Made by a program: the position numbers and the translations under genes
The notes under the pieces: generated by a model
Seen by the model: only the letters and a program-made list of their open reading frames with translations
The model's database searches: none
Told to the model about the DNA's origin: nothing
Assembly: GCA_020638635.1 (NCBI GenBank)
Contig: JACKIE010000001.1
Span: 305,906-369,905 of the forward strand
Direction of reading: 5' to 3'
DNA from: Planctomycetota bacterium
GTDB taxonomy: Bacteria > Planctomycetota > UBA8742 > UBA2392
DNA: 64,000 bases
Shown: one piece after another, positions 5,825 through 62,788 of the stretch
Layout: each line of letters opens with the position of its first letter
Position numbering within the stretch: the first letter of the stretch is position 1

Positions 5825-7924
5825 CTACAGCTTGACGTCAATGCTCGCGAACAGCAGCTCTTCGGCCTGGGGCGCGGGCACCGGGCGGCCGAACAGGTAG
5901 CCCTGTGCCCAGCGACAGCCGTGGTCGTGCAGGAACTTGAGCTGGCCCGAATGCTCGATGCCCTCGGCAATCACCCGCAAGTTCATGGCCTCGGCCAGGG
6001 CGAGGATCGAGGTGCTGATCGCCACATGGTCCTTGTCGTGGGGCAGGCCGCTGATGAAGGAGCGGTCCAGCTTGATTGCCTCAACAGGCAGTTTGCCCAG
6101 GTAGCTGAACGAGCTGTAGCCGGTGCCGAAGTCGTCGATGGAAATGCCGATGCCCATGGCCTTGAGTTCGTCCAGGGCCTGCAGATCGCCCTTGGAGTAA
6201 TCGACGAACACGCTCTCGGTCAGTTCGAGTTTCAGCGCCGAAGTCGGCAGGCCGGTGTCGCGCAGCACGTCGCGCACCATGCTGACCACGTCTTCGCGCT
6301 GCAGCTGGTAGGCCGACAGGTTGACGCTGATGATGGTGGGCTCGCCGAACTGGTCCATCCACTGGCGGTTCTGGCGGCACGCCGCGTGCAGGACTTGGCG
6401 GCCCAGCGCGCAGATCAGCCCGGTTTCCTCGGCCACGGGGATGAAATCGGCCGGCGAGACCATGCCGCGGCCGGGCTGCATCCAGCGCACCAGGGCCTCG
6501 TAGCCCGCCACGACACGCTTATGCAGATCCACCACGGGCTGGTAGAACACGACGATCTCCTCCGTGCCGATGGCGCGCCGCAGGTCGGTCTCGATGCGCA
6601 TCATCATGACCGTCTGGCTGTGCATCTCGATGTCGAACACCTCGTAGCGCGCACGGCCCTTTTCCTTGGCGCGGTACATGGCGATATCGGCGTGGCGCAG
6701 CAGGTCTTCGGCGTCGCCTGAGCCTTCCTGGCTGAGCGCGATGCCGATGCTCGCGCTGGCCTTCACGTCCGTGCCACGCACGACGACTTCCGGCTCCAGC
6801 GCTGAATGGATGCGTTCCGCCAGGTGTACCGCGTTGCGCAGATCATGCACGTCTTCAATCACCACCGCGAACTCGTCGCCACCCAGGCGCGCAACGGTGT
6901 CGGCCGGTCGAACGGCGCTCATGAGACGCCGCGACACTTCCAGGATCAGCTGGTCGCCGGCCGTGTGGCCCATGCAGTCGTTGACCAGCTTGAAGCGGTC
7001 GAGGTCAACCAGCAGCACCGCGCAGCGGCATCCCGGCTGGTCGTCGCGGCGTTTGAGCAGGTGGTTGATGCGGTTCATGGCGAGCGCGCGGTTGGGCAGG
7101 CCGGTAAGCTTGTCGTGGAAGGCGTCGTGCAGAATCTGGCGCTCGATGCGCTTCTTTTCGCTGATGTCGCGAATCACCGCTATGTAGAGGCGTTTGCTGC
7201 CTCCTTCCACTTCGCTGATGGTGACCTCGGCGTCGATCAGGCGTCCGTCGCTGCGGCCGGCCACGAATTCGCGCGGGGTGCGCAACTGTTTGCGGACGTC
7301 GCCGGTGCCGGCCCTGCCGGGGAGTGGCAGAATGGGTATGCCGCCTTCGCCGGGGAACAGGCAGCCGATGTCGGCGCCGATCAGGTTCTCGGCGCTGAAG
7401 CCGTACATCTCGCAGATCGCGGCGTTGGCGGTGACGATGCGCCCGCCGTGGTCGAAAGTGACGATGCCGTCGGCGGCGGCCTCCAGGATTGCCTCGGTCT
7501 CGATGGTGAACTGCAGCAACGAGGCTTCGATTTCGGATAGCCGGCGCTTGGTGCGGATCATCTCCAGCGCCCGGGCCAGCGCACTCGGCAGCCGGTCCAG
7601 GAAATCGGTGTCCTTCACGATGTAGTCCACCGCGCCGCGTTTCATCAGCTCCACGGCCAATGACTCGTTGCCCTGGCCGGTGGTAATGATGAACGGGAAG
7701 CTCTTGCCGTTTTTCTCAAGCTGATCGAGCAGGTCCAGGGCCCGCATGTCGGGCAGGATGTTGTCGATCAACAGCAGGTCCGCGCTGTAATCAAGCAGCC
7801 ACTGCACGGCCTGGGTGCCCGTGTCCACCGTGACGGGCTCGCACTCGACCTTGGCCACGGCGTTGCTGACCAGCTTCGCCACGCCGGGGTCGTCCTCGAT
7901 GATCAGGACCTTGGGGGTAACCAT
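5825..7924 (-). CDS. response-regulator receiver / PAS / GGDEF / EAL protein (c-di-GMP turnover)
   Basis: AAGGAGG RBS. REC N-terminus (KVLIIEDDPG), PAS segment, GGDEFAV motif and EAL motif (YEALVRW). Confidence 0.9.
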   Translation of the reverse strand: MVTPKVLIIEDDPGVAKLVSNAVAKVECEPVTVDTGTQAVQWLLDYSADLLLIDNILPDMRALDLLDQLEKNGKSFPFIITTGQGNESLAVELMKRGAVDYIVKDTDFLDRLPSALARALEMIRTKRRLSEIEASLLQFTIETEAILEAAADGIVTFDHGGRIVTANAAICEMYGFSAENLIGADIGCLFPGEGGIPILPLPGRAGTGDVRKQLRTPREFVAGRSDGRLIDAEVTISEVEGGSKRLYIAVIRDISEKKRIERQILHDAFHDKLTGLPNRALAMNRINHLLKRRDDQPGCRCAVLLVDLDRFKLVNDCMGHTAGDQLILEVSRRLMSAVRPADTVARLGGDEFAVVIEDVHDLRNAVHLAERIHSALEPEVVVRGTDVKASASIGIALSQEGSGDAEDLLRHADIAMYRAKEKGRARYEVFDIEMHSQTVMMMRIETDLRRAIGTEEIVVFYQPVVDLHKRVVAGYEALVRWMQPGRGMVSPADFIPVAEETGLICALGRQVLHAACRQNRQWMDQFGEPTIISVNLSAYQLQREDVVSMVRDVLRDTGLPTSALKLELTESVFVDYSKGDLQALDELKAMGIGISIDDFGTGYSSFSYLGKLPVEAIKLDRSFISGLPHDKDHVAISTSILALAEAMNLRVIAEGIEHSGQLKFLHDHGCRWAQGYLFGRPVPAPQAEELLFASIDVKL

Positions 7925-7946
7925 CGCCTCCTCCTTTCGCGCCGCG

Positions 7947-8378
7947 CTATTCCTCGAGCGGCGGCACGCGCATGATGTGCAGGAACATTCCCAGCCGCTT
8001 GATCACGTCCACGAACTCGTCGTAATCCACGGGCTTGGTGATGTAGTCGTTGCAGCCGAGCTCGTGGCAGCGCCGGATCTCCTGGGGCTCGTCCGTGGTG
8101 GTCAGCATGATCACCGGCATCAGCCGCAACTTCGAGTTCGCCTTCACGTGCTTCAGCACCTCGTCACCGCTTACCTTGGGCATGCGGATGTCCAGCAGCA
8201 GCAGGTAGGCGTTCTCGAAGTCCACGTGCTCGCTGCCGTTTTGCTTGTCCGCCAGGAAGTCCAGCACCTGCTGCCCGTCCTCGAAGCGACGGATGGTGTT
8301 GCGGATCCCCACGGTGCGAAGGTTGTTCTTCACCAGCGTGGCGTGGCCGGGGTCGTCCTCGGCTAACAGAATTTCCAT
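7947..8378 (-). CDS. single-domain response regulator (REC only)
   Basis: Start moved to MEILLAEDDPG (ATG 8378) behind an AGGAGGA RBS. DIRMPKVSG phospho-acceptor context. Confidence 0.85.
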   Translation of the reverse strand: MEILLAEDDPGHATLVKNNLRTVGIRNTIRRFEDGQQVLDFLADKQNGSEHVDFENAYLLLLDIRMPKVSGDEVLKHVKANSKLRLMPVIMLTTTDEPQEIRRCHELGCNDYITKPVDYDEFVDVIKRLGMFLHIMRVPPLEE

Positions 8379-8400
8379 CTTGGCGTTCCTCCTCTTTGCG

Positions 8401-11400
8401 TCAGGTGCGGTTTGAGTCATGGCTGCTGTTCCCCGTGGTTGCCGCGCCGACACGCCTGACAGGCTGTGCCGGTACGGTTATGACAAATCGACTGCCCTTG
8501 CCCTGTTCCGAATCGACACGGATGTCGCCCCCGTTGCGCTCCAGGATGCGCCGCACGGCCGCCAGCCCCAGGCCGTCGCCGTCGATGCCATCCTTGGGGT
8601 TCAGGCGGTGGAACACTTCGAAAATCACTGCCAGGTGGTTCTTCGCGATGCCCAGGCCGTTGTCGGAAAACGTGTATTCGACCATCCCTTCCACTTCGCG
8701 GCCGCTGACCACGATCTCGGCCGGCCGGTCGGGCGAGCGGTACTTGATGGCGTTGTCCAGCAGGTTGGAGCAGACCTGGCTGAGCTGGTCCGGGTCCATG
8801 TAGCATGGCGGCAGCGGCTCTACTTTCACATCCACCTCGCGTTCGTTGATCACGAACTGCATGGCGCCTACCACCTCGCTCATCAGTGCATTCATGTCGA
8901 CGACGGAGGGGTGTAGGACTGAGCGCCCCAGGCGCGAAAGCCGCAGCAGGCCCTTGATCAGGCGGTCCATCTTGCGGGTGCTTGAGTCGATGTAGCCCAG
9001 CGCCTCAGGGATGTCCTCGCGCAGCAGCGGGGTAACTTCCTCGCGCAGCTCTTCCTTGAGCGCGCCGTTGGACAACAGCTCGTTGAGCCGCGACACGGAG
9101 TCCGCCATCTGGCGGCTGAAGCCCTGCAGGTTCACCAGGGGCGAACGCAGGTCGTGCGAAGCGACGTACACGATGCTCTCAAGCTCTTTGTTCACCTGGC
9201 GCAGGCGCTGCTCGCTCATGACGATGGCCTGCTGGGCCCGGCGGCGCTCCGTGATGTCGCGCACCGAGGCGACCACCATGGGGCGACCGTCGAAGCTGAG
9301 CGGGCTGAGACTGACTTCGACCGGTACGGAGTCGCCATCCTTGTTCACGCCGGCCAGTTCGCGTCCAGCGACCATGGACCGGATGTCGGGGGAAGCAGCG
9401 TAGGCCGTGCGCTGCCCGACGTGGGCTTCGCGCAGGTGCTCCGGCAAGAGGATTTCAACCTTCTGCCCGATCGCCTCATCGCGGGTCCAGCCGAACAAGC
9501 TCACCGCTCGGCGGTTGAACTCGACGATGGTTCCATTCTCGTTCACCAGGATGGTGGCGTCCGGGGCGGAGGCCACCAGGGCCTCGAAGCGCGCGGCGTT
9601 TTCCTCGGCGTGGGTCACCGCGCGCTGCAGCTCTACGTTGCTGCGCTCGACATCTTTCAGCAGCTTCTCGCGCTCTTCGGCCGCCTTCACCCGTTGGGTG
9701 ATGTCGCGGATCACCCAGGCGAACTTGCGCCCTTCCGCGGTCTTGAATGCCGAGATCGCCACGGTTGCGGGGAATTCGTTTCCATCCAGCATTCTGCCGC
9801 GACCCTCGGACTGGGAGCCCGCCAGGTCCTCCATGCGGCTGGTGCGAACCTTGCTGACCAGCAGGTCCGGCAGGCCGCCGCTCTGCACCACCAGGCTGTC
9901 CACGCCCTTGCCTACCAGTTGCTCGCGTGTGCCGCGGAACATGGAAGCGGCCGATTCGTTTACTTCCTCGATGCGGCCGTTGGCGTCCACGATCAGCACC
10001 GCGTCCAGCACGGAGGCGAACAGGTTGGCAAGCTTTTCCTCGCGCTCTTCCAGCTGGTTCATGCTGTCGGTCAACCGCTCGGCGTTGGCTCTGGCGGTGC
10101 GTCCAAGCTGGACGCTGAGCCCCAGCAGGTTGGCGAGGATCAGGCCGGCCAGCAGGATCGATTCCGCAATGCGCGAGCGTGCGTTGGCCACATAGGACAC
10201 GGTGGGAGAGATAGTGATGTCCCAGCTCTCTCCACCGACGCGAAAGTCGGACCTGGCGTCGAAAGCGGCCTCTTCGAGAGTCTGAGCCTTCTGCTGCTCA
10301 AGAATGGAACCGCCGGGGCTGCTCAACTCGAATTCGAACTCATTCCAGGCCTTCTCGGGGATAAACCGCCGCAGGTACCTGTCGGCGTCGATCAGCGCCA
10401 GGGCCAGTCCCTCGTTGGCTCCGCGCTGATCGATGGCGGCGACAATCAGAAATCCCTTGCGTCCTTCCGGCAGCAAAACGGGACCATGCAGGAACGAGAT
10501 GCGGTCCGTAAGCCTTACACCGGCCTGTGATGAGGCCGTCTTCACCACGCTTTCGACGTAAATCCGGTCGTCGTTGCGCCCTGCCTCAGAGACATACTCA
10601 AACTCCCCACCGCGCTTGACCCACACGGCCAGGACCATTCCGGGGATATCCTTCACGTACGCCCGGGCGTCGGCATGCCAGGACTCCGATGCGAATACCG
10701 GGTTCTGCTCGATACGCAGGGCCATGCGCTCCATCGCCTTGCGCGACTGGTTGGTCTCAAGCGCCACCTCGGAGGCCAGCTGCTCGACCTCGGCGCTTCC
10801 CTGGGCCCGGATTACCTCGGTCTCGCGGACCTCCAGGTACATCGCCAACGCGACCACTGCCGCCGACACCCCGAAGGAGACCACGACCGCCACCACGGAT
10901 ATCGGTGAGCGCAGCGTCTCGGACAATTCGCGCCAGGCATGCCGGATCACGCCAAGGGCAAGCAGCAGGGCGCAGACCGCCGTCATGACCGACATGCCGG
11001 TCAGGATGCCCCAGCCGAAACCGACGAGCAGATTGCCGAAATAGCCGGTGAAGGCGAACGTCGCGTAGCCCAGTGCCAGGGTCCCCAGCACACTCGCGCC
11101 CAGCCGTTGCCACAGGCTGGGACGCAGCAGCAGCATCGCCCCAGTCGCGATGAACAGAAAGGAAAACGCGGAGGCCGAGGACATGCGGCCGCGGGAAGAG
11201 ACGTGATCTTCCGTGAAGGGCGAAACCAGCAAGGTGTCCAGGAAGATGTGTTCAATGTCCGCGTAGTTGGCTATCAGGGTGAGGGTGCAGATCGCAACCA
11301 CGCAACCGCCACAGGCCAGCACCAGCCGCCTGCGCCGGCCGGCAACGCCCCACACCGCAACGGAACACAGCAGTACAGAGAGTGCCGTGGTGAGCTGCAT

Positions 11401-21597: not shown

Positions 21598-21605
21598 GTT
21601 GGTTC

Positions 21606-22244
21606 CTATTCCGGTTTCACACTTTCCGCCCACTGGCGTATGGCCGTGCCCGCGGCCTCGGTGTCGGATGTAAGCACGACGCCGACCACGACGTAAGTAC
21701 CCAGCTTGTTCGAGATGGCAAAGACCGGGACCTCGCCGCCCTGCAGCTCGATCCAGCCCAGACTGTCGTTTCCTTCGCCGCTGCCTTCGCCGGCGGCGAC
21801 CTGCTTGCCCAGCTCGGCCGCGGCGGCCTTGGCCGGCTTCTGTTCCTTGCTCACGAAGTAAAGCAGGGCCCCGGCGGCCTGCTTCTCCCATTCGCCCCAG
21901 GCCTCGTCGGGCTCGGTGGGGCCGGGGGCCTTGCTGTTGACGACGCCGCTTACGAACTTCCAGTCCTTGGGGATCGGCTTCACGTGGCGCTCGAGTTCCT
22001 TCTGCACGGGGCTGTTGCCCTTCACCGCGTGCCAGCCGGCGGGCAGCGCCGACTTCACCTTCTTCCACAGGTCGGGGTCTTCCCTGGGGCCTTCCTCCGG
22101 CGTATTGGCAGGGGCCGGCTTGTTGCCGCCGCCGGATCCGCCGCCGGTGTTGCCGCCGGCCGGCGGCGCGACGTTGCCGCCGCCGCAGGCCGTGAGGGCC
22201 AGAGTCATTGCCAGGCAAAGTGCCGTAGCGAAATAGCGTGCCAT
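21606..22244 (-). CDS. lipoprotein, function unknown
   Basis: Lipobox LALTAC in MARYFATALCLAMTLALTACGGGN. Confidence 0.65.
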   Translation of the reverse strand: MARYFATALCLAMTLALTACGGGNVAPPAGGNTGGGSGGGNKPAPANTPEEGPREDPDLWKKVKSALPAGWHAVKGNSPVQKELERHVKPIPKDWKFVSGVVNSKAPGPTEPDEAWGEWEKQAAGALLYFVSKEQKPAKAAAAELGKQVAAGEGSGEGNDSLGWIELQGGEVPVFAISNKLGTYVVVGVVLTSDTEAAGTAIRQWAESVKPE

Positions 22245-22318
22245 GCCGAACCTCCAGTGCGGGGGCCGGCAATCCTAGCCACGAATCCAGAATTCAAAAC
22301 GGGAAAAATCGACGCGAG

Positions 22319-22786
22319 CTAGAACTCGTCTTCGTTCTCTGTCGGCGGTGTGTACTCGCGCGCCGGCTTTGCGGGCTCGGTTGCTGCTTCACGGGGCGCG
22401 CTGCATGGGGCAGCCGGCCCCGTGCATTCAACCGGCCGCTGCTCCAGCATCTCGTGCGTCCAAGGGTCGCGCTGTAGAAGGCGCAGCGCGTTCACGGAGA
22501 TCACGATTGCGATCACCAGGATGAACAGGCCGTTGCCGCGACAACGGACGTGTGTGCACTCGCGCGGGCGCGCTGCGCCGAAGCGCACGGGCACCCAGCG
22601 CCCGTCGCCAGCGGGGCGCGAGGGCAGCCGCGAGTTGTAAAGCCCCTGGCTGGATTCGCCCGGTACTTCCACCACGGACAGACAGTCCGGGCAGCGGATG
22701 CGCTTACCGGCGTAGAACTCGCTGAGTTCGCGCTGCCAGCCGCAGGTGCATTGGGCCCTGGTCCGCATGTCGCAAGTATACCACAT
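22319..22786 (-). CDS. zinc-ribbon membrane protein
   Basis: CTCGW...RCPDC four-Cys ribbon and one TM helix (LFILVIAIVISVNALRLL). The start may be M7 (22768). Confidence 0.5.
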   Translation of the reverse strand: MWYTCDMRTRAQCTCGWQRELSEFYAGKRIRCPDCLSVVEVPGESSQGLYNSRLPSRPAGDGRWVPVRFGAARPRECTHVRCRGNGLFILVIAIVISVNALRLLQRDPWTHEMLEQRPVECTGPAAPCSAPREAATEPAKPAREYTPPTENEDEF

Positions 22787-22809
22787 GCACGGTCGTCGTG
22801 CCCGGCCTC

Positions 22810-22837
22810 TTGTGCCTTGCTGCGGCGGCGCTACAAT
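22810..22837 (+). promoter_or_regulatory. candidate sigma70-type promoter of the MreB-like gene
   Basis: TTGTGC, 16-nt spacer, TACAAT. It lies ~80 nt upstream of ATG 22919. Confidence 0.3.
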
Positions 22838-22918
22838 TCCCGTCTACCCTCTGGAAACCGCTTTACCAAAGCTTTTACAGGCAACCCACGCACCGTGCCC
22901 GCCGACCCCGAAGACAAC

Positions 22919-25009
22919 ATGAACGAGCAGGTGTTCGAGGAAGAGGACGACGAACTCGACCTCTCGGACCTGCGCAATGCGCCGCCGCAACCGGAGACGA
23001 TCCGTGAGCGACTGCAGCGCGCCGCCCAGCGCCGCGCCACCGGCCAGCAGGAGAAGAACTGGCACGACACCCCGGTAAACGTCACGCCCAGCGGTCGCCA
23101 TGAAATCGTGGAAGAGGAGGGGGAGGTTGACGACTCCGACCTGGATGTGGACGAAGTAGTAATCACTCCGAGCGGGCGCCACCAGGTCGTCGATGAAGAC
23201 ATCGACGTCAACATGGACGACCTCGACGAATCGACGCTGGATGCCGCCGCGCACGACAGCTCGTTCCCGGGACCGGCCACGCGCATCGAGGAAGAGCTTG
23301 ACCTGGCGGGCCTGCGTGCGGCGCCGCCCATCACCGCGGGCCCCATGACCATGGCGGCCTTCGACATGGGCAACGCGGATGACGCGCCCGATGACACGGA
23401 CGGCCCCGTGCGCGGCGACACAGAGCGCATCGTGGCCGGCCCGGATCGAACGCCGGCGCGCGAGCAGGCATCCGGTCCGATGACCATGGCCGCCATGGAG
23501 ATGGAGGCTGGTGGCATCGACAACCCGCCGGACGAGGAATCCGTGCCGACAGTAGAGGTACCCGGCGCGTCGGCAGGCGATCTGGACGAGTTGGGTGGTT
23601 CCGGGCCGATGACGATGGCATCGATGGAGATGGAATCTGACATCGCGCAAGGTGATATGTCGCAAGGCGATAAAGTGAACGGCCGCGAGCAATTACCCTC
23701 TGGCGAAACCGTGGATACACTGTTAGATAACAATCCTCAGCAATCCGAGCAGTACGATGGAAACGCGGCGCACGGCGCGGTTTCGCCCGAGGAGGGTGAC
23801 GCGAACGAGCTGGAATTGAACGCGGCCGAAGCCGGCAGCGAGGAAGACCAGTCAGCAGCAGAATCGGAGAACCTCGACCTGGAGGCTGATGCAGGCGGGG
23901 ACGACGATCCAGGCGAAGAAGAACCCGGGGCGGTCTCGGGCGACTCGACACCTGCAGAACCATACGAAGAGTCTCAACAGCCGGAGGTATTCACCGTGGG
24001 TGATGATTCGGGTGCGCCGCTCGGGCGCGGCTTGGACGTGGGTACAGCGAACCTTGTCGCTGCCCGCATGGATGAAGAAGGCGGCATCGAGTTTTTCCCC
24101 GCACGCAACGCGTTCCTTGACGTGCCGGAAGACCCGTACACCTTGAAGATGCTGAAGGGGCAGGGCGTTCCGTACATCAAGCGCGAGAACAAACTCTTCA
24201 TCATCGGTGAGGACGCCTTCGAGCTTGCCAACATCTTCAACCGGGAAATGCGCCGTCCCATGAAGAACGGCCTGATCAGCCCGACCGACGTGGACGCCAT
24301 GCCCATGGAAGTCGAACTGTTCAAGAAGATTCTCGGCCCGCCACGCGCCGACGGCGAAGTGGTGTACTACTCGATCCCGGCCGACCCGGTGGATTCGACG
24401 ATGAACATCGTGTACCACACGAACATCGCCAACGGCCTGCTCGAGCGCCTGGGCTACCGCGGCCACCCCTTCAACGAAGGCCAGGCCATCGTGTTCAGCG
24501 AGCTCGGCGACGACGACTTCACCGGCATCGGCATCTCCTGCGGCGGCGGCATGGTGAACGTGTGCGTGTGCTTCCGCTCGATGCCCGTGGTCAGCTTCTC
24601 GACCGCCAAGGGCGGCGACTGGATCGACCAGCAGGCGGCGCAGGTGATGGGTTGCGCGGCCAGCAAGATCACCGCGGTGAAGGAACGCGGCGTGGACATC
24701 AACGCGCCGAAGACGCCTGAGGAAGAGGCGATCGTGATCTACTACCGCCACCTCATCAAGTACAGCCTCGACAACATCGTCAAGAAGTTCGAGACCACCA
24801 AGGACATCCCGAACTTCCCGAAGCCGGTTCCCATCGCGGTTTCCGGCGGCACCTCAAAGGTCGGCGGCTTCGTGGACGTCTTCAAGGACGAGTTCAGCAA
24901 GATGGCTTCCCGCTTCCCGATCAAGGTCAGCGACATCCGCAAGGCGGAAGACCAGCTGAACGCGACGGCCAAGGGTTGCCTGCTTGCGGCGCTGAGCCAC
25001 GAGGACTAG
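22919..25009 (+). CDS. divergent MreB-like actin-fold ATPase with ~365-aa acidic repeat-containing N-terminal extension
   Basis: The C-terminal ~325 aa carry LDVGTANLV (phosphate-1), RRPMKNGLI (MreB-like), GIGISCGGGMVNV (phosphate-2) and IAVSGGTSKVGGF (adenosine). The ORF upstream of ~22790 is antisense to the zinc-ribbon gene, so ATG 22919 was chosen (GTG 22895 is possible). Confidence 0.75.
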   Translation: MNEQVFEEEDDELDLSDLRNAPPQPETIRERLQRAAQRRATGQQEKNWHDTPVNVTPSGRHEIVEEEGEVDDSDLDVDEVVITPSGRHQVVDEDIDVNMDDLDESTLDAAAHDSSFPGPATRIEEELDLAGLRAAPPITAGPMTMAAFDMGNADDAPDDTDGPVRGDTERIVAGPDRTPAREQASGPMTMAAMEMEAGGIDNPPDEESVPTVEVPGASAGDLDELGGSGPMTMASMEMESDIAQGDMSQGDKVNGREQLPSGETVDTLLDNNPQQSEQYDGNAAHGAVSPEEGDANELELNAAEAGSEEDQSAAESENLDLEADAGGDDDPGEEEPGAVSGDSTPAEPYEESQQPEVFTVGDDSGAPLGRGLDVGTANLVAARMDEEGGIEFFPARNAFLDVPEDPYTLKMLKGQGVPYIKRENKLFIIGEDAFELANIFNREMRRPMKNGLISPTDVDAMPMEVELFKKILGPPRADGEVVYYSIPADPVDSTMNIVYHTNIANGLLERLGYRGHPFNEGQAIVFSELGDDDFTGIGISCGGGMVNVCVCFRSMPVVSFSTAKGGDWIDQQAAQVMGCAASKITAVKERGVDINAPKTPEEEAIVIYYRHLIKYSLDNIVKKFETTKDIPNFPKPVPIAVSGGTSKVGGFVDVFKDEFSKMASRFPIKVSDIRKAEDQLNATAKGCLLAALSHED

Positions 25010-25035
25010 AATTTCCTCAATTGGCAAACCGTGAC

Positions 25036-25069
25036 GCGCGCCCGGTTTCCACCGGGCGCGCTCTTTTTC
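25036..25069 (+). terminator. rho-independent terminator after the MreB-like gene
   Basis: GCGCGCCCGGT-TTCC-ACCGGGCGCGC followed by TCTTTTT. Confidence 0.7.
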
Positions 25070-25091
25070 GGACCACTAACGGTGATGTGGC

Positions 25092-25709
25092 ATGGCTGAC
25101 CTTGCGAAACTGGCAAACCTTTCCAAGCGCCTCAAATCTTCGACACCCAAGGTCAATGAGGATGCTTCGCCTCTCAGCGGCGGCTCTCCCTCCACGGCCG
25201 TGAGCGACGATGACGGAGGCTCCAGCTCCGTCGCGGAAGCGCCGCGCTCGGCGCCGGTCGCTTCTGCGGCGCCAGTGGTTGCGGGCGGCGGCGGGGCCGC
25301 ACCCAAGGTCACCCTCAATGTGGACCTCGGCCCGGTCACCGACATGCTCGGCCGGATCCGCGATGAAATGCGCAACCTGCGAGAGGAAGTCAAGAAGTCC
25401 CGCGAGAAGCCCATGAAGGTGGACTTCGGCGACGGCGCTAACGAACAGATGGACCAGATCCTGAAGCACCTCAGCTCCGTCAGCAAGGCAGGCCGCGAGC
25501 TGACCGAGAAGCTGGTCACCAGCATGCCTGAGTCGCGCTGGTACGGCGACCTGCTGAACCTTGGGCGCGAAGTGGGCGAAGGCATCGTGGCAGGCGGCGG
25601 CGGAGGCGGAGGCGGCGGCAGCGCCGAAGACATCAACTCGATCAAGGAGCAGCTCGAGATGCAGAAGACCCAGCTCACTGCGATCCTCAGCATCCTGCAG
25701 CGGCGCTAG
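25092..25709 (+). CDS. hypothetical protein (disordered N-terminus, helical core, Gly9 run, C-terminal coiled-coil-like helix)
   Basis: 205 aa with coding-like composition. GGGGGGGGGSAEDINSIKEQLEMQKTQLTAILSILQRR. No family recognised. Confidence 0.55.
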   Translation: MADLAKLANLSKRLKSSTPKVNEDASPLSGGSPSTAVSDDDGGSSSVAEAPRSAPVASAAPVVAGGGGAAPKVTLNVDLGPVTDMLGRIRDEMRNLREEVKKSREKPMKVDFGDGANEQMDQILKHLSSVSKAGRELTEKLVTSMPESRWYGDLLNLGREVGEGIVAGGGGGGGGGSAEDINSIKEQLEMQKTQLTAILSILQRR

Positions 25710-25732
25710 CAGTACGGCGTACTGGGTAGATG

Positions 25733-25762
25733 GAACAGAGCCGCGAACACGCGGCTCTGTTC
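25733..25762 (+). terminator. terminator-like perfect hairpin without a U-tract
   Basis: GAACAGAGCCGCG-AACA-CGCGGCTCTGTTC, a 13-bp perfect stem. Confidence 0.5.
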
Positions 25763-25828
25763 ACATCCGCTCAACACGCGCTCCGCAACTGCTGACTCTC
25801 CACCCCGCACTCTGTACCCTGTACCGCC

Positions 25829-26617
25829 ATGATCCACCCCACCGCCATTATCGATCCAGCAGCATCCATCAACGCGACGGCCGAGATCGGCCCCTTCTGC
25901 GTGGTCGGCGCCGGCGTAACGATTGGTCCAGGCAACCGCATCGGCCCACACACCGTGATCGAGGGTCCGACGACCATCGGCGAAGGCAACCGCGTCGGCA
26001 ACCATTGCAGCCTCGGCGCTCCGCCCCAGGATCTCGGCTACAAAGGCGACCCCACGAGGCTGGTGATCGGCAACCGCAACTTCCTGGGCGACTACGTGCA
26101 GGTCAGCCGCGGGACAACCAAGACCGAGCACCAGACCACCAGCATCGGCGACGACAACTTCCTGATGGCCTACTGCCACGTCGGCCACGATTGCGTCGTG
26201 GGCAACCGCGTAATCGCCGCCAACGCGCTGCAACTGGCGGGCCACGTCACGGTGGAGGACCGCGTGGTGTTCGGCGGACTGGTGGCGATCCACCAGTTTG
26301 CCCGGGTGGGCAAGATGGCCATGGTCAGCGGCGGCAGTGTCACCAGCCTGGACATCCCGCCCTTCTGCCGCGTGGGCGGCTACGGCTGTCCGGTTTACGG
26401 CCTGAACGCAGTAGGTCTGGAGCGCAGCGGGCTGGCCCGCGAGCAGATCAAGCGCTTGCGGGAAGCCTACAAGCTCTTGTTCCGCAGCGGCACCTCGCTC
26501 GAAGACGCGCTGACGCGGCTGGAAACCGAGTTCAGCGACAGCGAGCAGGCCCAGCATTGGGTCAAGTTCTTCCGCACAACCAAGCGCGGCGTCGTGAGAG
26601 ACCGCGAGCCGAAGTAA
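25829..26617 (+). CDS. lpxA: acyl-ACP--UDP-N-acetylglucosamine O-acyltransferase
   Basis: MIHPTAIIDPAASI... hexapeptide repeats, then the helical C-terminal domain. 262 aa. Confidence 0.92.
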   Translation: MIHPTAIIDPAASINATAEIGPFCVVGAGVTIGPGNRIGPHTVIEGPTTIGEGNRVGNHCSLGAPPQDLGYKGDPTRLVIGNRNFLGDYVQVSRGTTKTEHQTTSIGDDNFLMAYCHVGHDCVVGNRVIAANALQLAGHVTVEDRVVFGGLVAIHQFARVGKMAMVSGGSVTSLDIPPFCRVGGYGCPVYGLNAVGLERSGLAREQIKRLREAYKLLFRSGTSLEDALTRLETEFSDSEQAQHWVKFFRTTKRGVVRDREPK

Positions 26618-26798
26618 CTCGGCACCGGATGCCACTTGTAAAGGCGACTACTGGCTAACCACGACGGACCACCAAGAACCACGAAGGAGGGCTCTTGTCG
26701 GTCAATGGCTGTATTCTGTGCGGTTGAAATTCAGCCTGGAACCGTGTGGAGCGTCATGCCGCTGCGCCAGTCCAAAATCTAGAATCCCAAATCCCCAA

Positions 26799-27371
26799 TC
26801 ACCCCAATCCCCGCCGGTCCCGCTGCCCGCGTTCATCCGTCCCGATGCCCATCACGGCGTCGGCCTGTTCGCGCGTCATCGCAGGTCGGTATGGCTGCGG
26901 CGGCAACTCGCCCCGGGCCCGCAGCACGAAGTCGCGGGCCCATTGACGTGTAAAGACCCGGCTGTGCTGGTTGTGCTTCAACTCGATCTTCAGCCCCTGC
27001 TGCACGATCCGCGCGCCGCACTCGACCAGGCGCTCCTCGATCAGCTCGATCGCGCGCCCGAAGTTGCGGTAGGCGCGGTCGCAGCCCACGAACGCGGCCG
27101 CCGGGACGCCATCGAGTTTGCGCCGGGGAACCAGCAGTTCAAGCATGCCGCGGTCAAACGGCAGCCAATCGCCGTGGTGCTCGCCGTCGCCCCAGGTGGG
27201 CTCGCCCAGCAGGATCGCCTGCGCCTCCAGCAGGATTGACGCGTCAAGACCGTAGGCGTTGTAGCTGTCCACGCTCGCGCCGGCTGACTCGGCGCCCTCG
27301 GCGGCCAGCTCGGCCGTCTCACGGGTATTGCCGCCCGTGCTGGCGTATACGATCACCAGCTTCAGGCTCAT
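26799..27371 (-). CDS. flavodoxin-like protein with C-terminal extension
   Basis: KLVIVYASTGGNTRETAE FMN-phosphate loop and LLGEPTWGDGE. ATGA overlap with the upstream PAS gene. Confidence 0.75.
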   Translation of the reverse strand: MSLKLVIVYASTGGNTRETAELAAEGAESAGASVDSYNAYGLDASILLEAQAILLGEPTWGDGEHHGDWLPFDRGMLELLVPRRKLDGVPAAAFVGCDRAYRNFGRAIELIEERLVECGARIVQQGLKIELKHNQHSRVFTRQWARDFVLRARGELPPQPYRPAMTREQADAVMGIGTDERGQRDRRGLG

Positions 27372-27796
27372 GGAAGCTTCGTCAGGATGGCAGAGGGTCC
27401 CTGCAGGGCCGGGGTTTCGCGCAGGTCGATCAGCAGGCTGGTGAATCCCTGCAGCTCGCCTTGGGCGTCCACCCGCCGGCTCGAAACGTCCAGCACCGGC
27501 ACCTCGGCACCGTCCGACGCGATCAGCCGGTAGCGCAGGATCAGCCGATCCGAGCCCTGCCGGTGCAGCTCGTCGCCCTCTGCCAGTAGATCCAGGTCGT
27601 CCGGGTGCACCACGCTGGCGGCCGAGTACTTCTTGCCGTGCAGGAAGTCCTCCAGCTCGTAGCCCAGCAGGTTGGCGGCGTGCCGGTTGGCGAAGCGCAG
27701 GGTGTAGTCATCGTCGGCGTCGGTGCAGATCAAGGCCGCGGGCATGGCCTCAATCAGCTCGGCCGGGTCGGGAATGGGACCGATGGGTTTGCGCAT
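27368..27796 (-). CDS. stand-alone PAS-domain protein (one module)
   Basis: PAS-like core (ALICTDADDDYTLRFANRHAANLLGYELEDFLH...VHPDDLDLL) ending in DLRETPALQGPSAILTKL. Confidence 0.7.
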   Translation of the reverse strand: MRKPIGPIPDPAELIEAMPAALICTDADDDYTLRFANRHAANLLGYELEDFLHGKKYSAASVVHPDDLDLLAEGDELHRQGSDRLILRYRLIASDGAEVPVLDVSSRRVDAQGELQGFTSLLIDLRETPALQGPSAILTKLP

Positions 27797-27868
27797 GGCA
27801 GCCTCTCATTCGGCGATGATAGAGGGTTCCGCCCGGAATGCAAAAGGTCACGTTGGCAAGGCAACGAA

Positions 27869-28744
27869 TCAGCCGCCAAGGAGGCCGGACGCACCCCACA
27901 GGGCCGGCACATGGCTGATGTCCAGCACTGCGCCCGCCACGCCCACCTGCTCGTAACCCGGCGGCTGCGCCCCGCGCGCAAAGATCAGAACCGGCACCAG
28001 TTCGCCTTCAGCATCCAGCAGCCGCACGCGCGCCGCAGAGCGGGCATCGATCGCCGCGGCCGCCGTTTCGATGTACGCGTCAGCATGGTCCTGGTCTTCG
28101 GGAGAGACGGTGCTCGACGGCTTGTAAACCTTGGCGTCGAGAAACTCCTGGGCGGAGTAGCCAAGCAGTTCCTCCAGCGAGCCCGACATCGCCCGCACCG
28201 TGTACTGCTCGTCGTTCTCGGTGAAGAACGACACAACCGGCAACTGGCTGGCCGCCCAGGCGGCATCCACCTGCGCGGGCAGCCTTGCCGGAGGGCGGCG
28301 CCGTTTCGGGGCGCGCAACTCGGAAAGCAGCCCGGAGGGGCCCTGCAGCTGCGGGATGCCTCGCAGGTCAAAACTGACACCGGCAAGGGCCTGCACTTCG
28401 CCCCGTTCGCCGATCACGGCCTTGGTCGCAAGCAGCATGGGAATGGGTTCGCCGTTGGCTTGCACCAGCCTGTAGCGGGATACGACCGGAGCGCCGCCCG
28501 AAGCAGCCTGCTCGGCGTGGGCGTCGATGATGTCTTGATCTTCCGGATGTGTGGTGGAAGCCGCATAGTAGTGCTTGTTGCGGATAAAGTCGTCCAGCTT
28601 GTAGCCGAATGCCTTGCCACTGCCTGCCGCGATGAAGTGCATGGAGTAGAGAGCGTCGTTGTCGCATACGAACGAGACGAAGGGCACGTTGGCGAGCAGC
28701 CAACCCTCATCAAGTTGCCCTGCATTCCGCGCGAATTGGTTCAT
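27869..28744 (-). CDS. tandem PAS-domain protein (two modules)
   Basis: Two copies of the same ~140-aa module as the downstream gene. Each ends in a D-[LI]-[RS]-x-[IV]-P-x-L-[QW]-G-[PA]-S-G-L-L motif. Confidence 0.7.
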   Translation of the reverse strand: MNQFARNAGQLDEGWLLANVPFVSFVCDNDALYSMHFIAAGSGKAFGYKLDDFIRNKHYYAASTTHPEDQDIIDAHAEQAASGGAPVVSRYRLVQANGEPIPMLLATKAVIGERGEVQALAGVSFDLRGIPQLQGPSGLLSELRAPKRRRPPARLPAQVDAAWAASQLPVVSFFTENDEQYTVRAMSGSLEELLGYSAQEFLDAKVYKPSSTVSPEDQDHADAYIETAAAAIDARSAARVRLLDAEGELVPVLIFARGAQPPGYEQVGVAGAVLDISHVPALWGASGLLGG

Positions 28745-28825
28745 CGCCTTGATCGCCCAGCGTTAGGACGGACAAAGGTAATATAGTCACGGATTCAAGC
28801 GAAAGCATTTCGGAAGGACGCAGAA

Positions 28826-28923
28826 TAAAAAAAGGACTGACAACGTCCATTGTTGCCCCGGATGAATTTTCGACTGGACAACGTCGAAAATTCGAAGCCC
28901 TCGCGGGGCAATCACGAGGGCTT
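28826..28923 (-). terminator. compound hairpin cluster ending in a T7 run downstream of mnmG
   Basis: On the minus strand: GAAGCCCTCG..CGAGGGCTTC (10 bp), GAATTTTCGAC..GTCGAAAATTC (11 bp), then GGAC-GTTGTCA-GTCC followed by TTTTTTT. Confidence 0.5.
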
Positions 28924-29048
28924 CACTCAATCCCCTCCCGGGCTAAGAGGGGTTGGGGCATATGGTTTTCATGGCCCTTGGGCCGACGATCGAAGTCTAC
29001 CCGGCGACCCGGGCCGAATCAAGACTAATTAGGTCCACGTTACCCAGT

Positions 29049-49328: not shown

Positions 49329-49353
49329 CCGTTCCTGTTTCGTACTGCAGCCT

Positions 49354-49425
49354 CGCGCAGAGACCGCAGAGGGCGCAGAGAGTGGCAAAACCGCAGTTCT
49401 CTGCGCCCTCTGCGTACTCTGCGCG
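49354..49425. repeat. nonamer-array hairpin (GCGCAGAGN)3 in a divergent promoter region
   Basis: Arm 49354-49382 (CGCGCAGAGACCGCAGAGGGCGCAGAGAG) against 49399-49425. 25 of 27 positions are complementary. Confidence 0.9.
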
Positions 49426-62689: not shown

Positions 62690-62788
62690 GGCGTTACCGC
62701 GTTTCGTCACGAAACACGGATGTTCCCCACAGGCTTCGAACCAAAACAGACTTACCGTTTAGCCAAGATGCACCCAAATACAAGGCGG

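What the first reader, a model, noticed from the sequence alone, without database searches (positions are those of the whole stretch)
22919..25709. Divergent MreB-like ATPase with a long acidic, internally repetitive N-terminal extension and small partner genes
The C-terminal ~325 aa have actin-fold ATPase motifs closest to MreB: LDVGTANLV, RRPMKNGLI, GISCGGGMVNV and VSGGTSKVGG. They are clearly divergent, with Ser-Cys in place of Asp-Ile before the GGG.

The preceding ~365 aa are D/E-rich, apparently disordered, and contain three families of short repeated motifs:
- 2x ELDL[SA][DG]LR[NA]APP
- 2x TPSGRH[EQ][IV]V[ED]E
- 3x GPMTMA[AS][FM][DE]M at 23338, 23474 and 23604, roughly 43-45 aa apart

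This layout resembles linear docking motifs fused to a filament-forming core.

Gene neighbours:
- A divergently transcribed zinc-ribbon TM protein at 22319-22786.
- Downstream, after a terminator hairpin, a 205-aa protein with a Gly9 run and a coiled-coil-like tail.

Together these could form an uncharacterised cytoskeletal or segregation module.
Basis: partly seen in the sequence, partly recalled or inferred. Interest (0 to 1): 0.7.

Follow-up and report, generated by a model that had tools for sequence, protein, structure and literature searches.

The report
Planctomycete actin homologue with acidic tail
This gene from an uncultured planctomycete encodes a bacterial relative of the archaeal cytoskeletal protein volactin, with a long, very acidic, floppy N-terminal arm carrying conserved short motifs, and it may show how a bacterial actin is linked to its partners.

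Summary
One ORF (most likely GTG 22895 to 25009, 704 aa) encodes about 370 acidic, disordered residues followed by an actin-fold core. All three repeat families are at the stated positions.

The family assignment needs correcting. The core is not MreB. It belongs to Pfam PF25216 Volactin (265 bits, cutoff 35). The nearest solved structure is MamK. The "Ser-Cys instead of Asp-Ile" feature is a hallmark of the whole family.

The extension is translated and under constraint:
- dN/dS is 0.23-0.44.
- It stays in frame in 31 orthologues.
- Net charge is -62 to -105 in all of them.

The extension is restricted to one clade, and one close relative lacks it. The core is unusually conserved: 93% identity in a genome where Alr is 76% identical.

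Three features support the partner genes:
- A 205-aa orphan protein lies downstream in all 21 assessable relatives.
- It sits behind a hairpin that is conserved through compensatory changes.
- The divergent zinc-ribbon membrane protein is linked by a fusion: a distant relative has the same ribbon, an acidic linker and a volactin core in one protein.

Other relatives carry ParB-HTH, HU or coiled-coil modules. The best reading is a filament core with an interchangeable N-terminal adaptor arm. The cargo is unknown. I rate it a new variant of a known kind.

The parts
22895..25009 (+). Gene for a volactin-family actin-fold protein.
   Evidence: ORF and translation. The NCBI model P0001 starts MPADPEDN. 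The close relative L008 starts at the equivalent GTG. Pfam PF25216 E=1.1e-78.
22895..24022 (+). N-terminal extension of about 370 aa: acidic, low-complexity, predicted disordered, and carrying short conserved motifs.
   Evidence: 26% D+E, net charge -79. GC3 exceeds GC2 throughout in this frame. dN/dS is 0.23-0.44 against 11 relatives. Conserved islands in 31 orthologues. Net charge is -62 to -105 in all 31.
22952..22987 (+). Motif ELDLSDLRNAPP. The second copy, ELDLAGLRAAPP, is at 23294-23329.
   Evidence: The DLDLSDL part is nearly invariant in 31 orthologues.
23066..23116 (+). Block NWHDTPVNVTPSGRHEIVEE, the best conserved part of the extension. A second copy of TPSGRHQVVDE is at 23165-23197.
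   Evidence: T, P, V, T, S, G, R, H and E are invariant in 31 orthologues. There are 1-3 SGRHE-like copies per orthologue.
23339..23368 (+). Motif GPMTMAAFDM. Further copies are at 23474-23503 and 23603-23632.
   Evidence: 24 of 31 orthologues carry 1-3 copies, and one subclade has none.
24023..25006 (+). Actin-fold ATPase core (volactin domain) with phosphate-1 LDVGTAN, connect-1 NEGQA, phosphate-2 GISCGGGM and adenosine SGGTSKVGGF motifs.
   Evidence: Pfam covers aa 370-691 and profile positions 3-321 of 321. AF2 model pLDDT 93.8, pTM 0.91. Foldseek best hit is MamK filament 5ljv, TM 0.72-0.75. Motif equivalences come from the profile alignment to MamK.
25036..25071 (+). Intrinsic-terminator-like hairpin (11-bp, G+C-rich stem) plus a T-run, lying between the actin gene and the 205-aa gene.
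   Evidence: A hairpin at the same place in 20 of 20 relatives, with changes on both sides of the stem.
25092..25709 (+). 205-aa clade-restricted orphan partner. It has a conserved N-terminal helix MADLAKLANLSKRLK, a variable linker, a helical middle, a Gly9 run and a conserved C-terminal helix IKEQLEMQKTQLTAILSILQRR.
   Evidence: Found 8-172 bp downstream of the actin gene in all 21 distinct relatives whose contig reaches that far. 89 homologues, all at least 50% identical, all from this lineage, several with locus tags adjacent to the actin gene's. No Pfam, NCBIfam or PADLOC family.
22319..22786 (-). Divergently transcribed 155-aa protein. It has an N-terminal zinc ribbon (CxCGW..LSEFYAGKRIRCPDC), one hydrophobic helix and a Pro-rich acidic tail ending in EDEF.
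   Evidence: Family alignment. Present at this position in 14 of 21 distinct relatives. The ribbon is homologous to the N-terminus of the fused protein P0305 (37% identity over 54 aa, E=1e-9). The ribbon HMM hits only this family and two ORFs of L088.
21606..22244 (-). 212-aa lipoprotein-like gene with an LTAC lipobox. It is a conserved neighbour, but whether it belongs to the module is uncertain.
   Evidence: Found in 13 distinct relatives (17 loci counting duplicate fetches of the same contigs and the window's own contig). It diverges very fast: 36% aa identity to L008, where Alr is 98%.

Best explanation
What it is. This is a chromosomal gene of an uncultured, deep-branching Planctomycetota lineage. 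It encodes a member of the volactin family of actin-fold ATPases (Pfam PF25216).

The core (inferred). The C-terminal ~325 aa most likely bind ATP and polymerise into MamK-like filaments.

The N-terminal arm (its position on the filament and its function are inferred). Each subunit carries about 370 residues that are strongly polyanionic and disordered. This region would project from the filament surface. I read it as both a charged brush and a docking platform. Its conserved short motifs (DLDLSDL, NWHDTPVNVTPSGRHE, DLDESTL, FPGPATRIEEELDLAG, GPMTMAA x3, DTER) would recruit partners.

The partners (association shown, binding inferred):
- The 205-aa orphan encoded downstream. A conserved terminator hairpin between the genes probably keeps it less abundant than the filament subunit.
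- The divergently encoded zinc-ribbon membrane protein. It would tie filaments to the cytoplasmic membrane, in the way RodZ ties MreB.

Family context. Across the family, the same hyper-conserved core is combined with interchangeable N-terminal or neighbouring adaptor modules: a coiled-coil protein, ParB-HTH, HU, a zinc ribbon, or an acidic disordered region. The extension here is one lineage's version of a cargo adaptor.

Shown here: family membership, the fold, that the extension is coding and under constraint, motif conservation, the gene associations and the fusions.

Inferred: polymerisation, projection of the arm, docking, membrane anchoring and attenuation.
For: Family and fold:
- PF25216 at 265 bits against a cutoff of 35, covering the full profile.
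- AF2 model of the core: pLDDT 93.8.
- Foldseek top hit is the MamK filament, TM 0.72-0.75, followed by MreB and BeeR.
- The family profile hits MamK at E=1e-7 and MreB at 0.01.

Polymerisation precedent:
- H. volcanii volactin forms dynamic filaments in vivo that are anchored to the membrane by their tips (PMC10869688).
- BeeR, a MamK-like actin of Verrucomicrobiota, has a 30-50 aa N-terminal extension as its hallmark. The extension is unresolved in the filament map, which the authors take to support disorder (PMC11929497).

Extension is real and constrained:
- In frame in 31 orthologues, with conserved islands.
- dN/dS 0.23-0.44, against 0.02-0.14 for the core.
- Coding GC3 pattern.
- Net charge -62 to -105 in every orthologue.

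Core hyper-conservation:
- 93% identity to L021, where Alr is 76%, LpxA 75% and TilS 69%.
- No amino-acid change against L008 at dS 0.13.

Partners:
- The 205-aa gene is downstream in 21 of 21 assessable relatives and is restricted to the clade.
- The hairpin is conserved in 20 of 20 relatives through compensatory changes.
- The zinc-ribbon neighbour is present in 14 of 21 relatives.
- In P0305 the same ribbon is fused to an acidic linker and a volactin core.

Modularity:
- HTH_ParB in 7, zinc ribbons in 3 and HU in 1 of 61 extended family members.
- A coiled-coil gene lies immediately upstream, on the same strand, in 52 of 58 core-only loci.
Against: - No experiment exists on any bacterial member of the family. 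Polymerisation, motif docking and membrane anchoring are all inferred.
- The phosphate-2 aspartate of MamK/MreB is a serine throughout the family. Nucleotide chemistry may therefore differ.
- One close relative (L023, core 91% identical) has no extension yet keeps the 205-aa partner. The extension is not required for that partnership.
- The clade shares broad synteny (tilS to lpxA). Neighbour conservation within it is therefore weak evidence on its own.
- The zinc-ribbon gene is missing in 7 of 21 relatives.
- The full-length AF2 model was uninformative, with pLDDT 39.9. No docking of a motif on the core could be seen.
Confidence: 0.6

Rival explanations
1. DNA-segregation machine. The filament would push or pull chromosomal or plasmid DNA, as ParM/ParR does. 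The extension and/or the 205-aa protein would be the adaptor to a nucleoprotein complex.
For: - Seven extended family members carry an N-terminal ParB-HTH domain, two of them above the Pfam threshold. One carries an HU domain.
- An actin gene followed by a small gene is the parM-parR layout.
- The haloarchaeal actin salactin aids DNA partitioning (cited in PMC10869688).
Against: - No DNA-binding domain was detected in the extension, the 205-aa protein or the zinc-ribbon protein.
- A polyanionic arm with net charge -79 would repel DNA.
- I saw no centromere-like repeat array on reading the 108-bp upstream intergenic region.
- The locus is chromosomal, lies between alr and lpxA, and is stably syntenic.
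Confidence: 0.2
2. The extension is only a regulatory or physical 'entropic bristle'. Its charge would keep the protein soluble, space filaments apart or inhibit polymerisation. The motifs would not dock on specific partners.
For: - The one property conserved in all 31 orthologues is the large negative charge.
- Motif repertoire and copy number vary between subclades.
- A close relative lacks the extension.
- The extension evolves far faster than its flanks: 71-87% nt identity against 92-97% in the alr region to its left.
Against: - Several blocks are invariant or nearly so over 31 orthologues while the sequence around them diverges: TPVNVT.SGRHE, DLDES.L and R39/L40/A43/R46. Charge alone does not explain that.
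- Repeat copies are kept at the peptide level with synonymous differences.
Confidence: 0.15
3. Mis-annotated start. Translation would begin near the core (GTG 23996), and the acidic region would be untranslated leader.
For: An in-frame GTG lies at 23996. Core-only proteins of 337 aa occur in databases, and one true core-only relative exists (L023).
Against: - The frame stays open in all 31 orthologues, with every indel in frame.
- dN/dS is well below 1.
- GC3 is 0.62-0.87 against GC2 0.34-0.53 across the region.
- In L023 a stop codon and a different gene lie upstream, unlike here.
- The 337-aa database entries come from contigs of 1.2-5.8 kb, most under 2 kb.
Confidence: 0.03
4. It is a divergent MreB that guides peptidoglycan synthesis.
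For: Actin fold; MreB structures are among the top Foldseek hits; alr lies nearby.
Against: - No Pfam MreB_Mbl or NCBIfam MreB hit.
- 14-18% identity to MreB structures.
- No mreC, mreD or rodZ next to it in the ±3 kb read gene by gene; only selected ORFs elsewhere in the window were scanned.
- A separate Pfam family fits at 265 bits.
Confidence: 0.01

Closest known systems
Volactin (VolA, HVO_2015) of Haloferax volcanii; Pfam PF25216
   Same: Same Pfam family over the whole domain. Actin fold. The archaeal protein forms dynamic filaments that span the cytoplasm and touch the membrane at their tips.
   Different: This protein is bacterial (Planctomycetota). It carries a ~370-aa acidic, motif-rich N-terminal arm, and has its own orphan partner and a zinc-ribbon membrane neighbour. 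The disk-shape role shown in a haloarchaeon cannot be transferred. No bacterial member has been studied: the 14 of 17 'volactin' papers that the search listed are about haloarchaea or cite volactin in passing, by title and abstract.
MamK (magnetosome actin), PDB 5ljv/5ljw/5jyg
   Same: Nearest solved structure by profile (E=1e-7) and by fold (TM 0.72-0.75). The connect-1 Glu and the adenosine motif are kept.
   Different: 17% identity. NCBIfam MamK scores 23 bits against a cutoff of 400. None of the window ORFs scanned against Pfam is a magnetosome gene. The phosphate-2 Asp is replaced by Ser.
BeeR (Verrucomicrobiota tubular actin), PDB 8r2n
   Same: A MamK-like actin of the PVC superphylum whose hallmark is an N-terminal extension that is unresolved in the filament map and described as intrinsically disordered. 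Fold match TM 0.70.
   Different: The BeeR extension is 30-50 aa, about a tenth of this one, and no motifs or partners are described for it. Sequence relation is marginal (profile E=0.02).
MreB with RodZ
   Same: An actin-fold filament together with a bitopic membrane protein whose small cytoplasmic N-terminal domain could bind it. This is a working analogy for the zinc-ribbon protein.
   Different: Not a family member. The zinc ribbon is unrelated to the RodZ HTH. No elongasome genes adjacent to it.
ParM/ParR-type segregation actins
   Same: An actin gene followed by a small partner gene. Relatives are fused to ParB-HTH or HU.
   Different: No DNA-binding domain and no centromere repeats here. 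Chromosomal housekeeping context.
Saltatorellin (MamK-like actin of Saltatorellus, bioRxiv 10.1101/817700)
   Same: A second, MamK-like actin in the Planctomycetota/Saltatorellus group that forms filaments when expressed in heterologous hosts.
   Different: Identity with this family could not be tested. The published primers encode MTDITTD... and ...YWEQLK*, which do not match the termini here.

Membership tests
Volactin family (Pfam PF25216) | Full-length match to the family HMM above the gathering score | tested here: met
   265.4 bits against cutoff 35, E=1.1e-78, aa 370-691 on profile positions 3-321 of 321.
Volactin family (Pfam PF25216) | Actin fold with four subdomains and nucleotide-binding motifs | tested here: met
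   AF2 pLDDT 93.8, pTM 0.91. 663 PDB matches at E<=0.001; the 50 listed are almost all actin-superfamily structures, mainly MamK, MreB, BeeR and eukaryotic actins/Arps. Phosphate-1 D, connect-1 E and the adenosine GG are kept. Phosphate-2 has Ser in place of Asp, as in the rest of the family.
Volactin family (Pfam PF25216) | Dynamic filament formation in vivo | not testable with these tools
   Shown only for H. volcanii VolA-msfGFP.
Volactin family (Pfam PF25216) | Role in the rod-to-disk shape transition | not testable with these tools
   This is a haloarchaeal phenotype. The organism here is an uncultured bacterium.
MreB | Match to PF06723 MreB_Mbl or an NCBIfam MreB model | tested here: not met
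   No hit at E<=1 in Pfam or NCBIfam.
MreB | Genomic association with mreC, mreD, rodA, pbp2 or rodZ | tested here: not met
   The neighbours are alr, a lipoprotein, the zinc-ribbon protein, the 205-aa orphan and lpxA. Only selected ORFs of the 64-kb window were scanned.
MamK | NCBIfam NF040964 above its cutoff | tested here: not met
   22.9 bits against cutoff 400.
MamK | Located in a magnetosome gene cluster | tested here: not met
   None of the 14 window proteins scanned against Pfam is a magnetosome protein. The remaining ORFs were not scanned.
BeeR | Close sequence relation to BeeR (8r2n) and a short N-terminal disordered domain | tested here: not met
   Profile E=0.022, 15% identity. The extension here is about 370 aa, against 30-50 aa.
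ParM/Alp segregation systems | A DNA-binding adaptor (ParR-like) and centromere repeats next to the actin gene | tested here: not met
   No DNA-binding domain in any of the three partner proteins. No repeat array seen on reading the upstream intergenic sequence; no repeat search was run there. Relatives with ParB-HTH/HU fusions keep the idea alive for the family as a whole.

The most novel reading that the evidence does not exclude
Planctomycetota lack FtsZ, and at least one species can lose MreB without a phenotype. In this reading the phylum uses a hyper-conserved volactin-type actin as a general cytomotive filament. Cargo specificity would come from interchangeable adaptor modules attached to or encoded next to its N-terminus: a coiled-coil protein, ParB-HTH, HU, a zinc ribbon, or, in this lineage, a 370-aa acidic arm of short linear motifs. 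That arm would play the part that separate actin-binding proteins play in eukaryotes. The locus would then be the core of this lineage's membrane-linked division or morphogenesis cytoskeleton.
Probability: 0.2. Interest if true: 0.85.

Novelty: new variant of a known kind. Interest (0 to 1): 0.6.

Why it matters
How Planctomycetota divide and shape themselves is unknown. The phylum lacks FtsZ, and Planctopirus limnophila loses ftsI, ftsW and mreB without a growth or budding phenotype.

A second actin family is widespread in the phylum. It occurs in 527 species-representative genomes and forms 545 clusters at E<=1e-30. It is conserved far more strongly than housekeeping enzymes. It is therefore an obvious but unstudied candidate cytoskeleton.

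This locus is the most elaborate version seen here. It combines a long motif-bearing disordered arm on each subunit, a dedicated orphan partner behind a conserved attenuator-like hairpin, and a zinc-ribbon membrane protein whose link is backed by a gene fusion.

It gives concrete peptides and protein pairs to test. It would also be a rare bacterial case of a cytoskeletal polymer carrying its own array of linear docking motifs.

Tried and rejected
1. Upstream partner versus this locus. I tested whether the upstream coiled-coil partner of core-only relatives is homologous to the extension or to the 205-aa protein. hhalign probabilities were at most 1.4%. An HMM of the partner's conserved C-terminal motif (ESN...VEVK...LAKLKKL) found nothing in extension-clade ORFs. 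The resemblance to MADLAKLANLSKRLK is not supported.

2. Full-length AF2 with 31 orthologues, to look for a motif docking on the core. Mean pLDDT was 39.9 and even the core was poor, probably because the core sequences are nearly identical. The result is uninformative.

3. Direct sequence search of the PDB with the single protein: no hit at E<=10. Only the profile reached MamK.

4. Defence-system reading: no PADLOC hit for any of the four proteins.

5. NCBIfam has no volactin model. Proteins that NCBI names volactin also hit only MamK weakly.

6. Saltatorellin link. This remains untested.

7. Whether this genome also has mreBCD/rodA or ftsZ/ftsA could not be checked. Only this 64-kb window and ±10-kb loci are readable.

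8. Taxonomy below phylum. One clade member (H3_PLA7) was assigned only to Planctomycetota by GTDB-Tk.

9. Rfam and tRNA scans of the window found nothing.

10. Cu(I)-binding 'Mets motif' reading of GPMTMAAMEM. I considered it from memory only and set it aside, because the protein is cytoplasmic and has no signal peptide.


Full report
**1. What is in the sequence**

A single ORF on the + strand ends at 25009. NCBI's model of the identical protein (P0001, MAG 'Planctomycetes bacterium', locus tag H6841_05765) starts 8 codons earlier, at GTG 22895. The orthologue N-termini (MPHNPNDD, MQVDPTDD, VHVDPSDN) align from that point. I therefore take 22895 as the likely start.

The ORF is formally open back to 22550. 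That stretch overlaps the divergent gene and lacks a coding GC3 pattern: 0.73/0.64/0.62 at codon positions 1/2/3. The extension shows GC3 of 0.62-0.87 against GC2 of 0.34-0.53.

All three repeat families lie at the stated places, give or take 1 nt. Six pairs of 10-mers match with at most 2 mismatches, against none in 200 shuffles. The GPMTMA copies are only 68-83% identical as DNA, with synonymous differences. The N-terminal 368 aa are 26% D+E and 0.5% K, with net charge -79.

**2. What the core is**

Pfam places aa 370-691 in PF25216 'Volactin' (E=1.1e-78, 265 bits, cutoff 35, whole profile). There is no MreB_Mbl hit. NCBIfam gives only a sub-threshold MamK match of 23 bits against a cutoff of 400.

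- A profile of 31 diverse cores finds MamK (5ljw, 5jyg, 5ljv) at about 1e-7 and MreB at about 0.01 in the PDB.
- An AF2 model of the core is confident, with pLDDT 93.8 and pTM 0.91.
- Its best structural match is the MamK filament (TM 0.72-0.75), followed by MreB and BeeR at 14-18% identity.

In the profile alignment to MamK, the phosphate-1 Asp, the connect-1 Glu and the adenosine motif are kept. The Asp-Ile of 'VDIGxGT' is Ser-Cys here. That Ser is invariant in the 31 planctomycete sequences. It is also kept in remote members, which read SFGAGM, SHGAGM, SWGGGM or SAGCGM.

Volactin itself is known only from Haloferax volcanii. There it forms dynamic filaments anchored to the membrane by their tips. 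It promotes the rod-to-disk transition, and a full deletion could not be obtained (PMC10869688).

**3. How big the family is, and where it occurs**

- 1416 clusters at 90% identity match the core at E<=1e-5.
- 545, 1105 and 1479 clusters at 50% identity match the profile at 1e-30, 1e-10 and 1e-3.
- 527 species-representative genomes encode a relative. Of the 80 listed, most are labelled Planctomycetota, including Brocadiaceae/Kuenenia, and the rest are 'uncultured bacterium', Omnitrophota or Proteobacteria MAGs.
- Most members are 330-400 aa, that is, the core alone.

The long acidic extension is confined to a tight clade of about 22 species-level genomes whose cores are at least 87% identical to this one. 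One clade member was classified by GTDB-Tk only as 'Planctomycetota'.

**4. Is the extension translated and functional?**

Thirty-one orthologues keep the frame open, with all indels in frame. dN/dS against eleven relatives is 0.23-0.44 for the extension and 0.02-0.14 for the core.

Invariant or nearly invariant islands stand out from diverged surroundings:
- DLDLSDL
- E..RERL..A..R
- W.DTPVNVT.SGRHE
- DLDES.L
- the first GPMTMAA copy
- DTER
- SGET...LLDN

Net charge is -62 to -105 in all 31 orthologues. The motif repertoire shifts between subclades. GPMT is present in 1-3 copies in 24 of 31 and absent in one subclade, which instead has three SGRHE-like copies and two or three DTER copies. L008 has duplicated GDTERI.

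The extension is evolutionarily plastic. Its length ranges from about 86 to about 600 aa, and one subclade inserts an E/R/K-rich coiled-coil segment. One close relative (L023, core 91% identical) has none. There a stop codon and a different gene lie upstream.

Against a very close relative (L008, Alr 98% identical), the extension is 71-87% identical at the nucleotide level. The alr region to the left runs at 92-97%, while the genes to the right are more uneven (72-92% across the 205-aa gene to the flavodoxin gene). The core runs at 96-98%.

**5. Core hyper-conservation**

Against L021 the identities are:

| Protein | Identity |
|---|---|
| Volactin core | 93% |
| Alr | 76% |
| LpxA | 75% |
| Flavin reductase | 74% |
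| TilS | 69% |
| 205-aa protein | 59% |
| Extension | 31% |

Against L008 the core has no amino-acid change. It also has the lowest dS in the region: 0.13, against 0.2-0.5 for most other genes of the region and more for the fast-evolving ones. The core's GC3 is 0.89. This degree of constraint recalls eukaryotic actin. It fits an abundant polymer with many contacts, but that is an inference.

**6. Neighbours**

(a) The 205-aa gene lies 8-172 bp downstream in every one of the 21 distinct relatives whose contig reaches that far. That includes the extension-less L023. The family has 89 members, all at least 50% identical and all from this lineage. Several have locus tags adjacent to the actin gene's. 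None has a Pfam family.

(b) The hairpin and T-run lie between the two genes. They recur in 20 of 20 relatives with changes on both sides of the stem. This looks like a conserved terminator or attenuator. It would set a high subunit-to-partner ratio, which is an inference.

(c) The divergent 155-aa protein has three parts: a four-Cys ribbon (CxCGW..LSEFYAGKRIRCPDC), 1-3 hydrophobic helices, and a Pro-rich acidic tail ending in (D/E)(D/E)EF. It is present in 14 of 21 relatives. An odd number of helices and a cytoplasmic ribbon would put the tail in the periplasm, which is also an inference.

Synteny inside this clade is broad, running from tilS to lpxA. By itself it therefore proves little.

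The decisive addition is a fusion. P0305 (517 aa, locus L088) has the same ribbon at its N-terminus: 37% identity over 54 aa to the window protein, E=1e-9. The ribbon is followed by about 160 acidic residues and then a volactin core. An HMM of the ribbon hits only this family and two L088 ORFs among all ORFs of 88 loci.

**7. The wider pattern**

In 52 of 58 core-only loci, a coiled-coil protein of roughly 230-590 aa as mechanical ORFs (284 aa as the called gene in L005) lies immediately upstream on the same strand. It often overlaps the start codon. It has no Pfam family and a conserved C-terminal ESN..VEVK..LAKLKKL motif.

Among 61 extended family members:
- 7 carry an N-terminal ParB-HTH. 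Two are above the Pfam threshold. The five ParB-HTH-type members read in full also have long Pro/Glu-rich C-terminal tails, four of them ending in IPLIS or LPLIS.
- 3 carry MJ0042-type zinc ribbons.
- 1 carries HU.
- 1 carries a receiver domain.
- 1 carries a Wzz/ParA-like kinase module.

Short, variable, low-complexity N-terminal tails are general in the family. The simplest synthesis is a conserved filament core whose N-terminus is the attachment point for lineage-specific adaptors.

**8. Mechanism proposed**

See the best explanation. The steps shown and the steps inferred are marked there. The cargo is open. The ParB-HTH and HU fusions argue for DNA in some lineages. The zinc-ribbon membrane protein and the archaeal precedent argue for membrane and shape here. 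I put the membrane-linked cytoskeleton reading ahead of segregation for this locus, because no DNA-binding part is present and the arm is polyanionic.

**9. Comparison and novelty**

- It is a member of the volactin family (tested, met).
- It is not MreB, MamK or BeeR (tested, not met).
- It resembles BeeR in being a MamK-like PVC actin with a disordered N-terminal extension. That extension is about ten times shorter in BeeR and has no described motifs.
- The listed 'volactin' papers concern haloarchaea or cite volactin in passing.
- 'Saltatorellin' may or may not be related.

I rate it a new variant of a known kind.

**10. Limits**

- Everything about function is inferred.
- The full-length model failed.
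- Whether canonical mreB and fts genes are present in this genome could not be checked.
- The organism is uncultured.

Noticed in passing
L030-L087 and L005 (e.g. L005 5147-6001): In 52 of 58 core-only volactin loci, a coiled-coil protein with no Pfam family lies immediately upstream on the same strand, often overlapping the actin start codon. It has a conserved C-terminal motif, ESN..VEVK..K.GG...LAKLKKL. It appears to be an undescribed conserved partner of planctomycete volactins.
   Followed up: partly
P0076, P0077, P0062, P0071, P0081 (family members from other lineages): A volactin core fused to an N-terminal ParB-type HTH domain. The members read in full also have a long Pro/Glu-rich C-terminal tail, in most ending in IPLIS or LPLIS. 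Another member carries an HU domain. These are actin filaments with built-in DNA-binding modules.
   Followed up: partly
L088 561-7554 (GCA_964580675.1): The locus holds, in order: a zinc-ribbon multi-TM protein with very large charged disordered regions, the coiled-coil partner, and two tandem volactin paralogues. The second paralogue (P0305) is zinc ribbon + acidic linker + core.
   Followed up: partly
P0048, P0321, P0340 and other ~700-aa family members: Inteins are inserted in or next to the phosphate-2 loop of volactin homologues. In P0048 the insertion is exactly between the Ser and Cys of GIS|CGGGM.
   Followed up: partly
P0287, P0045, P0052: Proteins of 730-750 aa with two actin-fold (volactin) domains in tandem in one polypeptide. 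The first domain is more degenerate.
   Followed up: no
window 21606-22244 (-): The lipoprotein-like gene is only 36% identical to its counterpart in L008, a genome whose Alr is 98% identical (dN 0.63, dS 0.86, dN/dS 0.73). This points to very fast evolution or allele replacement.
   Followed up: partly
window 21600-29000 compared with L008: Synonymous divergence is mosaic. dS is 0.13 in the actin core, about 0.2 in alr and the flavin reductase gene, about 0.5 in the extension, the 205-aa gene and lpxA, and 0.6-1.2 in the two PAS genes (27368-28744). This suggests recombination between lineages or strong codon constraint on the core. It is unexplained.
   Followed up: partly
L023 6001-7014: A close relative (core 91% identical) has a 337-aa core-only protein with no extension and a different upstream gene. 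It keeps the 205-aa partner downstream.
   Followed up: yes
window 47400-49388 (-) and 45761-47368 (-): A bacterial dynamin-like GTPase (Dynamin_N, E=6e-24) lies next to a TPR-repeat protein.
   Followed up: no
window 60401-62710 (-): A 769-aa protein with an N-terminal FHA domain. Next to it, at 62789-63871, is a protein with a PPC (pre-peptidase C-terminal) domain.
   Followed up: no
window 5825-11538 (-): A signalling cluster: a receiver-PAS-GGDEF-EAL protein, a small ORF whose N-terminal sequence looks like a response-regulator receiver (not scanned), and a 1045-aa multi-PAS histidine kinase, all beside gyrA (3003-5681).
   Followed up: no
window 1-64000: No tRNA genes and no Rfam family at gathering score anywhere in the 64 kb.
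   Followed up: yes
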